A DNA stretch of 62,569 bases, filler included, from Squatina squatina (taxonomy: Eukaryota): assembly GCA_031763465.1 (NCBI GenBank). It is 3 parts of 3 records of this genome, joined end to end, with 100 filler letters (N's around TTAATTAATTAA, not from the genome) between each part and the next. Parts side by side here need not be neighbours in the genome. Positions count along the whole stretch, not along the records: positions 23,812 to 49,795 come from JARFOE010000004.1; 2 more parts are not named here. The stretch is one strand, 5' to 3'. The first letter of the stretch is position 1. Every line of letters begins with the position of its first letter. The notes beneath the pieces were generated by a model that saw nothing but the letters and a program-made list of their open reading frames with translations, was not told the DNA's origin and did not search any database. Made by a program: the position numbers and the translations under genes. Below are positions 27,679-45,599 of this stretch, one piece after another.

Positions 27679-27804
<126 letters not shown>

Positions 27805-30560: not shown

Positions 30561-31650
30561 TCATGCTCCATCCTATTTTCCTAAGAAAGTGGGACATGTG
30601 TTCCAGTCTCCTACTGTTCCTCCCTAAAGCACCACCCCAAAAGTATTATTGTTGCTTGCGAGATCTTGCTGTACACAAAAACATCTGCCGAGTTTGACAA
30701 TTTCAAAGTTTCAAAATATATTTCATTGGCACATGAATCACTTTGGGATGTTTCTGAGGGGTTTGAAGTGGTGCTATGTAAATACTGTCTTCTACTTTTT
30801 TAATCTTTGAAGGGAAGTGGGGAACGAAGACAATTCGAAAAGGGTTTCCGCGCCAAATAACGGACAGGTTGCCTGGAGTGGCATTTAGAGATGGGCCTTA
30901 TTTCTTTTTAATTCAGGTAGATAAATGTAAAACGGTGGCAAGTGTCTTTGCAAATAAGATGTTAATAATCTGTAAGCAAGGAATTGTCTAACCTGAAAGA
31001 ATAGAAATAATTAAAATAATTATGTTGTTTTGCATCAGTAACTGAAAATAAAACACGCCGACACTCTGCTCAAACTAGCTTCCTGACGACTGCTGATTTC
31101 AGCATAATACACTGACTTTCTCATTGTCACCTTCCAAAGTCACAGAAACATCCAATGTCTGATGCCAGATCTTTTCCACCTACTTTTTTCTGTTACCATA
31201 AATAATGTTACAGAAGCCTAAACTTTACATTAAGCGAACCTTTCTAACACTGGAATGTAAAGAAATGCTATCAAGGTTCTCAAATGTGCATGCGTGTGTT
31301 AATAATAATAAAAAAAATCCCCCATGGAGCATGGAAGAGATAGCAGCGAGCTTTATCTATGAACTCTGCAAGGTGCACGAGCCCATTAATATGTAACAGA
31401 TTTCCTTTGGGATTTATGCAGTAAATTCCAAAAAGGAATGGCATTGCAATATGTATTACATTCTGGGAAATGGTGCTTCACTGGTAGTACACAAAGTTGC
31501 AATGACAACCTTTCTTATTGTTGTTGAAATTTGCAGATAAGGCAGGATGAGCTCTCCAGCTTTATTCACAACTGCGATGAGTCGAAAAATAAAACAAAAA
31601 GTTCGCAGGGTATTTAATGCTTGAATGTTACTCTTAACAAGATAGCTCAC

Positions 31651-31755
31651 CTTGTGCACAACCACAGGAGTACTCGCCAATCATATTGACGCAAGTTGCT
31701 CCATTTTTGCAGGGATCAGAAGCACATTCATCAATGTCTGTTGAGCAGTTCTTGT
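31651..31755 (-). CDS. EYS: Calcium-binding EGF-like coding exon, probably EYS (resembles human exon 13)
   Basis: 105-bp phase 1-1 exon with ttttctttcctgccag| acceptor and |gtgagc donor. Translates [35 protein letters not shown](G); recalled human EYS has [16 protein letters not shown]. The cbEGF motif is generic, so the gene assignment also rests on strand and order. Not called in this frame by the ORF track. Confidence 0.7.
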
Positions 31756-32142
31756 CTGGCAGGAAAGAAAATGAAACATTAAAACTATAAATCATGCTGA
31801 GCTATAATAGGCAGCTAATGTCGCTTCACAGTCCGTGCAGCATCAATATAATCTGGCTTTACAAGTCCACAAAATGTCCCTTTACTGGGTGAGATACAGA
31901 ACAAGTCAACTCGCTCGCTCACTCTTGCTGTCTGTCTCTCTACACATATTGAAAATCTTTTAAGACTATTAAACCAATTAGGTGTCCCTTAGTCAAAGTA
32001 GTATAGCTGGCTTGAATACTTTAGGGGAGATTTTCCTCTTGGTTTCTCAGCTCCCAAGCATAGCGACAGGGAAATGGCGATATGGACCTGCAATGTTGGG
32101 TCTGCATTACCACGATGCTGCTTTGGGCTTTCCTAAGATTTC

Positions 32143-37200: not shown

Positions 37201-38114
37201 CCAAAAATTCCCAACCATCTCTCACTGTTATTTTAGTCCTTATCCCTCATGTCAGCATTCATTCAATCATTTCTGTCACCACACGGAATAGTGACTAATG
37301 TAGCTGAAATCCAGAATTTTCGGTATAGCTCATAATATTTTAGCCAGTCATCCCATGAAGATTGCTCATATGCTTAATTTAAACTCCAGGATCATTATGG
37401 TAGAATAAGCTCAAAATGAATTCAATCATATTAGCTTTTCTAGCACGTCAATCAAAATACACCAGTTGATGCCGCTCCTTACTTAAACAAGTCTGGTACC
37501 ATAAACCAGAACTGAAAATACACTGCAGGTAAGTCAGGATTTGCAAACAGATAGNNNNNNNNNNNNNNNNNNNNNNNNNNNNNNNNNNNNNNNNNNNNNN
37601 NNNNNNNNNNNNNNNNNNNNNNNNNNNNNNNNNNNNNNNNNNNNNNNNNNNNNNATATAGGTTCCCAGGAATGATTCCCCACTCAGTTGAGTTCCTATAT
37701 CCTGAAACTTCACCATAGCTGAGCAATACACTGTACTAATGTCCTCATGGTGACGCTGCTTTCTTCTTTGAATCTCAAGAACGACGCTGGGCTTCAATTG
37801 TGTTTTTTATGGGAGATGAATGACAGAGGGTCCAAACTGTCAGCCTCACAGCATGTTTGCTCAGTAAGCTGACCCATGCTGACAGCCACACGTACCTGTC
37901 TAGTCAGTTAGCTTGTTCAATTTGACAGCCACATCACGACTATTCAGTCAGCCTTCTCACTGAGCTATAATTATCAGCTCCCTCTGAACATCCGGTCTAT
38001 CATCTTCCTCAGCAGATTTCAAGTAGCCTTGTCAGAATCTGCTTACCATTGGCTACATAGTGGAGGTATGCTGCCAGTAATCATGATGTAAAACAATATG
38101 TGAATTGGCTTTAC

Positions 38115-38196
38115 CTGTATCCTGGCAGTTCTCCAGTCCAATAGGTTGATCTACGCACTCCATACCACATAGTACCTTCTTTCAACACCTTTTGAC
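38115..38196 (-). pseudogene. Decayed duplicate EGF pseudo-exon, paralogous to the 38501-38634 exon
   Basis: cag|...|gtaaag boundaries. Encodes GMECVDQPIGLEN versus GLQCVDRPIGLEY in the neighbouring exon, but has an upstream in-frame TGA and apparent frameshifts. Confidence 0.65.
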
Positions 38197-38500
38197 CTGA
38201 CATAAATATAGATATATTTATCCTTCAGAACATGGAATAACACATAGGGGTCTGGAGACTCCTCTGCGATCCTACCAGAGGTGGGTGCACAGTCATATGC
38301 AGTCAGGTGAGATTGACCCTGAGAATCCTAAACATGGACTCTGGACCCTATAAAGCTACATGGCTTCAGGTCAAACATGGGCAAGGAANNNNNNNNNNNN
38401 NNNNNNNNNNNNNNNNNNNNNNNNNNNNNNNNNNNNNNNNNNNNNNNNNNNNNNNNNNNNNNNNNNNNNNNNNNNNNNNNNNNNNNNNAAGCTGGCTTAC

Positions 38501-38634
38501 ATGTCCAGAACATGGTGCGAGGCAGATGTACTCCAAACCGATCGGACGATCCACGCACTGCAATCCCCTGGGACAGGTGGCACTTAGTATTGTACAGGCG
38601 TCTGAATCTACTTCGCAATTCTTGCCTTCAAATC
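38501..38634 (-). CDS. EYS: EYS coding exon, EGF-like domain (probable equivalent of human exon 10)
   Basis: 134-bp phase 1-0 exon with ttcttgcag| acceptor and |gtaagc donor. Translates (G)FEGKNCEVDSDACTILSATCPRGLQCVDRPIGLEYICLAPCSGH, alignable by eye to recalled human EYS GSEGEKCQGVIDAYFFLAANCTEDATYVNDPEDNNSSCWFP. Same strand and correct order relative to the 43.4-kb exon. Confidence 0.82.
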
Positions 38635-38989
38635 CTGCAAGAAATGAAATGTCAGGAAATTTGAAGTTAACAGTGGAATGGCAATTCACTGAGGCAAATT
38701 CAACAGTGGTAACTTGGATTTAATATACCCGATAGAGATTAATTACATCATTTTACAAAGCAATGTTAGAACTCATGCAAAACTTAAGCCTTGCTGACAT
38801 TTGAATAGATTTTGAGTGCACTTACATGTTGCTGTGTTTTTTTTTGCATCATTGAGAAACCTTAGTGACAGGCCAAGTGCAGGGTGTTGCCCATGTGGAA
38901 AGGAGCAGGGGGAAGGACAAGGATATTTCCCAAATAACATCTGGGGAATGCCAGATTGCTGCTTTCTGTTTCCAGTGCAATGCCAATGT

Positions 38990-39345
38990 ATGTAGCAAGC
39001 CCAATAAGAGAGGGGCTGGTTCTGGACTTAGTTTTAGGGAATGAAGCTGGGCATGTGGAAAGGATATCAGTTGGGGAGCATTTTGGTGGAAGTGATCATA
39101 ATTCAGTTAGATTTAGGGTAGTTATGGAAAAGGAAAAGATAGACCCGGAATAAAAGTTCTAAATTGGGAAAAAGCTCATTTTACTGAGCTAAGATGTGAT
39201 TTAGCTAAAGTCGACTGGAATCAGCTACTTGCAGGTAAATCAGTGTCAGAGCAGTGGGAGGCATTCAAGGAAGAGATACTGAGGATTCACAGCAAGTATG
39301 TTCCCTTAAAGAAAAATGTGGGACTAACAAATCCAGAACAGAGCA
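38990..39345 (+). mobile_element. CR1-clade LINE ORF2 fragment (endonuclease C-terminus and linker)
   Basis: PIREGLVLDLVLGNEAGHVERISVGEHFGGSDHNSVRF contains the APE SDH motif. Confidence 0.9.
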
Positions 39346-43226: not shown

Positions 43227-43414
43227 NNNNNNNNNNNNNNNNNNNNNNNNNNNNNNNNNNNNNNNNNNNNNNNNNNNNNNNNNNNNNNNNNNNNNNNNNN
43301 NNNNNNNNNNNNNNNNNNNNNNNNNNATGAGTAGTAATTATTAGCAAGCAACAGTCAAATTAATAGTGAAAATAAACTGGGAACTAAACAACCCAACGCC
43401 GATTTGAGCTTTAC

Positions 43415-43528
43415 CTTTGTACTCACGGTCACACATGCAAACAAAAGTATTCAGTGTCATGTTGCTGCAGTTTCCATGGATACAGACATGTGGCTCACAC
43501 TGCCCAATCAGCTCAGAACAATTATCAC
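43415..43528 (-). CDS. EYS: EYS coding exon, EGF-like domain (equivalent of human exon 5)
   Basis: 114-bp phase 1-1 exon with tttgcacag| acceptor and |gtaaag donor. Translates (G)DNCSELIGQCEPHVCIHGNCSNMTLNTFVCMCDREYK(G), close to recalled human EYS GKNCSEIIGQCQPHVCFHGNCSNITSNSFICECDEQFSG. Confidence 0.93.
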
Positions 43529-45599
43529 CTGTGCAAAACATCAAAATTAAGAGTTAATTATATAATTCACCATCAGCTTTAGCCGACCGACTGCAACATT
43601 AACCTGCAGGCCTTTTATAGTAAAATGAGCTAATTACAATAAATGTCAAAATGCATTGTTAAATGCCAACTCGCATTTGTGAACCATTTACTTAATAATC
43701 AGCTACAGACTACGTCTAAACCAAAATGATAACATAAGAGCGAATTATTGCCATTGCTAGTAGTTTTGCAGTTAACCAATCAACCCTGTGGCGTTTTCCT
43801 TTGATAGAGCAGTTCACAAACAGCTTATAGATATCATTGTGACACCCACAAAGGGTGGTTGGCACTTCAATTGTAAAGTCAGCAGGCTGCCTGTAATTCC
43901 AAGGAAAAATATTTGCCTCTCGTATAGCGATGGTATACATTGTTTTAAACAGACTCACAATGCAAGTGTAAATTGTTTATTGAAAGGGCTCTTGGACAAA
44001 GCAGAACATGTAACTCCTGTAAATGTACTCTACTGATTTGTCACAAGCCTGGATCATTGCTTACTCGATTACAACACGAAAAAACTTTATTTAAAGTCCT
44101 CTCCTCCATCTCCCAGTGGACTACTACAGCAACAACAATGTGAATTTACATAGCACCTTTAACATGGTAAAATGTCTCAAGTGTAGAATTCAGTATAAGA
44201 ATTCTCAATTTCTGCCCAGGACATTTTTGTATCCAAAATGGCGTTTTGTCCCATTTAAAAGAAGATGGCAGTAATCAAAANNNNNNNNNNNNNNNNNNNN
44301 NNNNNNNNNNNNNNNNNNNNNNNNNNNNNNNNNNNNNNNNNNNNNNNNNNNNNNNNNNNNNNNNNNNNNNNNNNNNNNNNCCAGCAAGGAGCAATTATAC
44401 ATTTGTCAATATCGACACAAGCTCATACATTGTCATACGTCTGATGGAGGTTAGACTTTATGTCAGCCAAAGAGATAAAAAATCAATATAGCACAAGGCT
44501 TTTCTTTTGAAGGCTAGCTCTACAGGGATAAGTTTAGGGGGAAAAAAATCAAATTTTGAATTTTCATTCTTACTGATTTATAGCCAGAACCCAGGCGATA
44601 ATTTGAGAGATTTGTTTCCAGTTCAGCTGAAATCAAAACAATATCATAAGCTGCTCGTGGTGTCATTTAATTCAGAGAGCTGTCTGTGAAAATCCAGATA
44701 AATGGCTGCTTTGTTATAGTGTCCTTTTAATGAAAAATAATGCTGACAATTGGGTACTAGAAGTACGTTTTTATATAAAAGTAGCACTCTGGTCTGGTTT
44801 GCAATAGAGCATTTGTCTTCCATTGAGAAGGCCCAGCTTTTATTGATACTGAAACTTGGCTGTCCTCTGAGGATAGTTTGTGTTGTTGCTTGGCAGGCTC
44901 ATCAACTAGAATGGCCCATNNNNNNNNNNNNNNNNNNNNNNNNNNNNNNNNNNNNNNNNNNNNNNNNNNNNNNNNNNNNNNNNNNNNNNNNNNNNNNNNN
45001 NNNNNNNNNNNNNNNNNNNATTTTTTTTCAAGCCATATGGGAAGCAATTTAAATTAACATCATGTTCCCTTCTTGTTGGAATTTGAAATAGGAGTGGGGT
45101 AGTTAAGAAGACATGCAGCACCTTATTTACTGAAGCAATTGCTTTTTGACTACTTTCCAGAAATTATAACTTCTCAATTACCTACTTGGCTAAATGCAAA
45201 CAGATGGCAATAACCACTAAAGTTAATTTAATGGACAAATTACTATTGTTCTTTGGGTAGTAATGGCATCTAGGAAGATTTTGTTTCAGATCTCCACTCC
45301 ATATGAACAATCTGTATTTAGAGAAAATGCAATGAAAAACTAATATACCCATTAACAGCTCATAAAGCTATTAGCCAAACAAGATTTTTTTAGAAGGCTG
45401 TAAGTTCTTTCCAGTTCCAATTTCCATCACAAGTTCCAGCAAGATGTACTTGTGGTATTTGGGTCAGGGTAGAATTAAATTGAGCTATGACAACTAACAA
45501 GGTTCAATAGCCACTGCTTCAGGCAGTGCTTCATGTAAAGAATCAGACTCCAGAATAAGGAAGGAAAAATTGGATGCAAAAAAACCCACTTCTATTTGC

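What the first reader, a model, noticed from the sequence alone, without database searches (positions are those of the whole stretch)
38115..38196. Decayed duplicate EGF exon about 300 bp downstream of an EYS exon, with a signature of past coding constraint
Seen: minus strand ggt atg gag tgc gta gat caa cct att gga ctg gag aac (GMECVDQPIGLEN) versus gga ttg cag tgc gtg gat cgt ccg atc ggt ttg gag tac (GLQCVDRPIGLEY) in the 38501-38634 exon. Over these 13 codons, 3 are identical, 6 differ synonymously and 4 are replacements. The segment keeps cag| and |gtaaag boundaries, begins like GQ(K/R)CE and ends like LPGY-G in a shifted frame, but carries a TGA and indels. Inference: an old tandem exon duplicate, possibly once a mutually exclusive or extra EGF exon, was under protein-level selection and then decayed. 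It may now act as a poison exon. A 100-N gap separates the two copies, so adjacency is not guaranteed.
Basis: partly seen in the sequence, partly recalled or inferred. Interest (0 to 1): 0.7.

Follow-up and report, generated by a model that had tools for sequence, protein, structure and literature searches.

The report
Fossil duplicate exon in shark EYS
Inside the eye gene EYS of a cartilaginous fish lies a broken copy of one of its own exons that is drifting like non-functional DNA, likely an ordinary leftover of an old exon duplication rather than a working control element.

Summary
Window 38166-38128 (minus) is a unique, non-chance copy of part of the intact EYS exon at 38634-38501: 3 identical, 6 synonymous and 4 replacement codons; protein score 56 against a null maximum of 49 in 3000. 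It is dead now. In a related species (coded run X2) the segment diverges like its flanks (9/82 vs 25/244). Eight of its 9 changes are non-synonymous, the GT donor reads AC, and the in-frame TGA is shared, so the stop is not an assembly error. The true next exon lies intact on an unplaced contig. None of 90 EYS-type proteins, nor the other catshark isoforms or a basking shark protein, shows a second copy. The parent exon is phase 1->0, so the copy could only have coded as a mutually exclusive alternative, never as an 'extra EGF'. Past coding constraint is only modestly supported (about 5-14-fold over dead-on-arrival in simulations). 'About 300 bp' is unsupported because the scaffold hides whole exons in its gaps. 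A live poison exon is unlikely (~6%). This is an ordinary decayed tandem exon duplicate.

The parts
38501..38634 (-). Intact EYS exon ('exon A'), 134 nt, phase 1->0; parent of the copy. Encodes FEGKNC...CVDRPIGLEYICLAPCSGH, a four-cysteine EGF-like module running into the next EGF (cysteine reading is inference)
   Evidence: 86% to sawfish EYS; catshark EYS X1 aa 532-580
38115..38196 (-). Decayed copy between cag| and |gtaaag, 82 nt, with an in-frame TGA at 38184-38182; 52 nt shorter than the parent
   Evidence: single copy in the assembly; orthologue without indels in run X2
38128..38166 (-). 13-codon core homologous to exon A 38566-38528 (GMECVDQPIGLEN vs GLQCVDRPIGLEY)
38103..38127 (-). 3' end and donor side, weakly alignable to the end of exon A and its donor; the GT at 38114-38113 reads AC in run X2
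38271..38388 (.). Dispersed repeat (about 80% identity to many copies) at the contig end facing the gap
38389..38488 (.). 100-N scaffold gap of unknown size between parent and copy
43413..43604 (-). Upstream placed EYS exon region (catshark aa 242-304)
31649..31756 (-). Next EYS exon placed in the scaffold (catshark aa 836-871); the exons between are missing from the scaffold
27688..27804 (-). Further placed EYS exon (catshark aa 1066-1104)

Best explanation
The segment is a broken copy of the neighbouring EYS exon that diverges from its counterpart in one related species at the rate of its flanks; it likely arose by tandem duplication, likely served for a time as a mutually exclusive alternative to the parent, and likely does nothing today. 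Shown: homology to exon A; single copy; in-frame stop shared with a relative; neutral divergence; donor lost in that relative; an intact true next exon elsewhere. Inferred: a local duplication created it. Because the parent is phase 1->0, including both copies would shift the frame and trigger NMD, so any coding life had to be either-or. The stop and deletions came before the split from the relative, and the copy is now spliced out with the intron. 'Dead now' (this reading plus the dead-on-arrival rival) is about 0.83.
For: Homology. The best hit of the segment's frame 0 in catshark, basking shark, sawfish and gar EYS is this module. Single copy. Neutral now: 9/82 vs 25/244 differences, Fisher P=0.84; 1 synonymous and 8 non-synonymous (one makes a second stop) against a neutral synonymous share of 0.20-0.26. 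Donor GT->AC, and pyrimidines lost before the acceptor, in run X2. The TGA is unchanged and there are no indels within the segment in X2, so the damage predates the split. The next exon (LCANGG...) is intact and starts in phase 0. In 87 of 90 EYS-type proteins the best hit was this module, followed directly by the next EGF; the other 3 hit a different EGF, and no second copy was seen nearby. Five other catshark isoforms and a basking shark protein differ from catshark X1 nowhere near it. Past constraint: P(>=6 synonymous and <=4 replacement) reaches 0.106-0.185 (fixed window) or 0.37-0.51 (best window) with 75-90% of the branch constrained, vs at most 0.013 / 0.066 if never constrained. CpG hypermutability does not close the gap: 0.012 / 0.047 vs 0.077 / 0.24.
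Against: Only one related species covers the segment; the two raw-read runs laid nothing and X1 held only exon A. With exon A as outgroup, all 5 polarisable core differences fall on the relative's side and none on this species' side (two-sided P about 0.06 if rates are equal; also biased by how the segment was found). That leaves some room for constraint in this lineage. The 5' third is unalignable (P=0.27), which fits poorly with a short neutral period and so weakens the past-coding step. The simulations ignore indels and use exon A as the ancestor. Adjacency across the gap is not shown. Gene models cannot show NMD exons. No RNA evidence was available.
Confidence: 0.5

Rival explanations
1. 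Dead on arrival: a partial or complete tandem copy of exon A that was never translated. The synonymous excess comes from selection on the living exon plus picking the best-preserved 13 codons.
For: The same neutral-now evidence. The 5' part is not alignable. The pattern arises in up to 6.6% of simulations when the best window is chosen. No annotated alternative exon in three chondrichthyan species. In run X2 the same core keeps only 5 of 13 residues, so the signature is fragile.
Against: About 5-14 times less likely than models with 75-90% of the branch constrained, depending on the statistic. Six of about 8 synonymous sites differ, against 5 of about 31 non-synonymous sites.
Confidence: 0.33
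2. A live poison exon. Inclusion after exon A would put TGA five codons in. Use instead of exon A would shift the frame to a stop early in the next exon. Either would tune EYS level by NMD.
For: AG and GT are present, and the donor matches 7 of 9 consensus positions, as the parent's does. Both inclusion modes give a premature stop. No polarisable core change lies on this species' branch.
Against: The donor is destroyed and the acceptor weakened in run X2, and there is no excess conservation. Such site pairs occur about 1.2 per kb. Described cryptic poison exons sit in conserved intronic elements (PMC11632617, abstract).
Confidence: 0.06
3. A relic of a different EGF exon (a lost EYS exon or another gene), or a contig misplaced by scaffolding.
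For: The LPGY-like tail in another frame fits a canonical phase 1->1 EGF exon, which exon A is not. Catshark X1 lacks an EGF that gar has at aa ~748-790, with LCGM and MECV in it. The gap is unbridged.
Against: The core matches exon A best in shark, sawfish and gar EYS; the gar-only EGF is not among the top three gar windows. No clear orthologue of it was found in the assembly (best E 0.93). A phase 1->1 exon cannot splice in frame between exon A (ends 0) and the next exon (starts 0).
Confidence: 0.06
4. Chance resemblance in intron DNA.
For: The DNA-level score is marginal (35 vs 31). The flanks do not align: 1108 of 2000 shuffles reached the upstream score.
Against: Protein score 56 was reached by 0 of 3000 nulls. 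It lies on the same strand in the adjacent contig, and the donor side is weakly homologous.
Confidence: 0.03
5. A normal exon whose stop and deletions are assembly errors.
For: The assembly is very fragmented (1.15 million contigs).
Against: An independent contig from another organism has the same TGA and no indels across the segment. The gene's next exon is present and in frame without it.
Confidence: 0.01

Closest known systems
Unannotated intronic tandem exon duplicates (Ivanov and Pervouchine, PMC9013439; passages read)
   Same: An intronic stretch homologous to a neighbouring exon of the same gene. That paper lists 4,027 such human intronic targets and cites about 10% of animal genes as having tandemly duplicated exons.
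   Different: Their candidates are on average more conserved than controls and some have split reads; this one is not more conserved than its flanks, is only 72% identical over 39 nt and carries a stop.
SCN-alpha mutually exclusive exons 5a/5b (PMC12772994; passages read)
   Same: A duplicated exon whose length is not a multiple of 3, so double inclusion shifts the frame and NMD can enforce either-or use; lineage-specific gains and losses are described, including in elephant shark.
   Different: 5a/5b are both open and expressed, with conserved intronic elements; the EYS copy is broken and no intact state was found in any relative.
Conserved cryptic poison exons (PMC11632617; abstract and outline read)
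   Same: An exon-like intronic segment whose inclusion would give a premature stop.
   Different: Those are conserved and read-supported; this one is neutral, loses its donor in a relative and has no RNA evidence.

Membership tests
Decayed tandem exon duplicate (pseudoexon) | Non-chance homology to an exon of the same gene | tested here: met
Decayed tandem exon duplicate (pseudoexon) | Same strand, inside the same gene, near the parent | tested here: inconclusive
   adjacent contig in the scaffold, but the gap is unbridged and hides unknown length
Decayed tandem exon duplicate (pseudoexon) | Real disabling lesions | tested here: met
   TGA and shortened length shared with run X2
Decayed tandem exon duplicate (pseudoexon) | Neutral evolution | tested here: met
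   9/82 vs 25/244, 1 synonymous: 8 non-synonymous; one relative only
Living mutually exclusive exon | Open frame with the parent's phases (1->0; length 2 mod 3) | tested here: not met
   82 nt is 1 mod 3 and the homologous frame has TGA
Living mutually exclusive exon | Either-or inclusion in transcripts | not testable with these tools
   no RNA holder listed; six catshark isoforms show no alternative here
Former mutually exclusive exon | dN/dS below 1 on the copy's own branch | tested here: inconclusive
   about 5-14-fold support in simulations; no multi-species codon model was possible
Regulated poison exon | Inclusion creates a premature stop | tested here: met
   (by frame arithmetic)
Regulated poison exon | Conserved sequence and splice sites | tested here: not met
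   donor GT->AC and flank-level divergence in run X2
Regulated poison exon | Junction reads, raised by NMD inhibition | not testable with these tools
   no RNA holder listed
EYS exon (parent, 38634-38501) | Orthology and exon order | tested here: met

The most novel reading that the evidence does not exclude
A lineage of cartilaginous fishes once made two EYS isoforms by mutually exclusive use of a duplicated EGF-module exon. The second exon survives intact in some relative, or in this species has been kept as a retina-specific NMD switch that sets EYS dose.
Probability: 0.1. Interest if true: 0.55.

Novelty: new member of a known kind. Interest (0 to 1): 0.2.

Why it matters
Little as it stands: decayed exon duplicates are common in long introns. 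It is a small record that the EYS EGF array gained and lost a module in cartilaginous fishes. It is also a clear case of how a synonymous excess between a live and a dead copy overstates past selection. It would matter more if an intact alternative exon or a regulated NMD switch turned up, because EYS is a frequent cause of recessive retinitis pigmentosa (PMC8127272, start of abstract in a search listing). No paper on an EYS exon duplicate in sharks appeared in four searches, which cover open-access text only.

Tried and rejected
No RNA holder listed; this is no evidence either way. Raw-read runs X13 and X14 laid 0 reads, which is no test, and X1 held only exon A. Flank alignment upstream of parent and copy: nothing. 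Decayed copies of neighbouring EYS exons in 8 nearby stretches (block-duplication idea): none convincing; best score 50, heavily gapped, for a 400-aa query. Second copy of exon A or of the segment elsewhere in the assembly: none (only best candidates are scored). Gar-type missing EGF exon as the source: not supported. HMMER over 1.84 billion representatives: 26 hits, mostly single-copy EYS modules plus a few unrelated proteins, none seen with a tandem second copy. No chimaera EYS was retrieved. Earlier findings of this scan: none. Supplements were not consulted.

Full report
Setting. The finding lies in the middle stretch of the pack (23812-49795), on scaffold C4 of a 1.5-Gb assembly of 1.15 million contigs. 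The exon at 38634-38501 (minus; 'exon A') is EYS: 86% identical to sawfish EYS and matching catshark EYS X1 aa 532-580. Other EYS exons lie in order on the same strand. The organism is inferred to be a cartilaginous fish. The scaffold is gappy. Exon A is followed in it by the exon for aa 836-871 only 6.7 kb away. The true next exon (phase 0 start, LCANGG..., intact) and the preceding exon sit on unplaced contigs C593186 and C974397. The 100-N gap therefore has no known size, the copy's contig ends in a dispersed repeat at the gap, and no listed contig piece bridges it. 'About 300 bp' cannot be kept.

Observation. The codon tally is right: 3 identical, 6 synonymous, 4 replacement, 28/39 nt. DNA similarity alone is marginal (35 vs 31 elsewhere in the window). 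The protein score of 56 was reached by 0 of 3000 Markov nulls, and among 114 real pieces only four true EGF exons scored above 38. The core's best match in catshark, basking shark, sawfish and gar EYS is this module; in zebrafish, bass and anole the scores are low and not decisive. The segment is single-copy. Outside the core, the donor side aligns weakly to the parent's end (P=0.011); the 5' part (P=0.27) and the upstream intron do not. Read from the cag in frame 0, the 82 nt give the GMECVD frame with one TGA. The 'LPGY' tail has no counterpart in exon A, which ends PCxxx| across vertebrates. AG...GT pairs of equal quality occur about 1.2 per kb here (56 in 47 kb, a few of them real exons).

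Is it alive? One of four runs laid covered it. A 1201-nt contig of coded organism B (run X2) spans 37900-38290 with 42 differences and no indel in the segment. Of these, 34 are listed, between 37933 and 38258; I infer from the ranking of rows that the other 8 lie near the ends. Nine fall in the 82 nt and 25 in 244 flanking nt (P=0.84). In the homologous frame 1 is synonymous and 8 are not, one creating a second stop; in the other open frame it is 1 and 7. The donor GT reads AC, pyrimidines are lost before the acceptor, and the TGA is unchanged. So the lesions are real, older than the split, and the segment drifts at the flank rate. Against this: with exon A as outgroup, 5 of 5 polarisable core changes lie on B's side (P about 0.06 at equal rates). 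Slower evolution or discovery bias can explain that, but it leaves some room for constraint in this lineage.

Relatives' proteins. Of 90 EYS-type proteins (88 after dropping 31 non-EYS rows and the first listed non-EYS row, plus two earlier ones; mostly teleosts, with gar, birds, lizards, catshark and sawfish), 87 gave this module as best hit followed directly by the next EGF. Three hit another EGF, and no second copy was seen nearby. Five further catshark isoforms and a basking shark protein differ from catshark X1 nowhere near it. Gene models would miss an NMD exon, and no chimaera EYS was retrieved.

Mechanism. Exon A is 134 nt, phase 1->0. Two copies in a row shift the frame, so the copy was never an 'extra EGF'. 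A coding life would have been either-or, with NMD removing double inclusion, as proposed for SCN exons 5a/5b (PMC12772994, passages). Today inclusion after exon A would meet TGA at codon 5. Use instead of exon A would shift the frame to a stop about ten codons into the next exon. I found no decayed copies of neighbouring exons that would point to a block duplication.

Past constraint. A synonymous excess is partly expected from the living exon alone. In simulations the chance of at least 6 synonymous and at most 4 replacement codons peaks at 0.013 (fixed window) or 0.066 (best window) for a never-coding copy. It peaks at 0.106-0.185 or 0.37-0.51 when 75-90% of the copy's branch is constrained. 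With CpG hypermutability the values are 0.012/0.047 vs 0.077/0.24. That is 5- to 14-fold support, offset by the unalignable 5' third and by the prior that many duplicates are never used (my judgement). I put former mutually exclusive use at about 0.5 and dead on arrival at 0.33.

Known kinds and verdict. Intronic homologues of neighbouring exons are common (4,027 human targets in PMC9013439, passages). Functional cryptic poison exons are conserved (PMC11632617, abstract), and this one is not. Four literature searches and three look-ups in this scan's notes showed no earlier description. It is a real but ordinary fossil exon: a new member of a known kind, interest 0.2.

Noticed in passing
G000 contigs C593186 (L022), C974397 (L024), C321251: EYS exons flanking exon A lie on unplaced contigs; the scaffold holds only a subset of EYS exons, so distances across 100-N gaps are unreliable. 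C321251 was seen only as a search hit.
   Followed up: partly
window 38501-38634: Exon A encodes an EGF-like module with only four cysteines that runs straight into the next EGF, the same across the vertebrate EYS proteins seen.
   Followed up: partly
window 38528-38551: This species, sawfish and gar have PIGL(E/Q) where catshark and basking shark have PA(D/A)LE.
   Followed up: no
catshark X1 aa ~755 vs gar aa ~748-790: An EGF present in gar and bass EYS is absent from the catshark model; no clear match in this assembly. Loss or annotation gap not resolved.
   Followed up: partly
window 38988-39337 and 38271-38388: Two dispersed repeats, about 90% and 80% identical to many copies.
   Followed up: no
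catshark EYS isoforms: Annotated isoforms skip whole EGF or laminin-G exons at aa ~756-835, 1065-1103 and 2382-2443.
   Followed up: no
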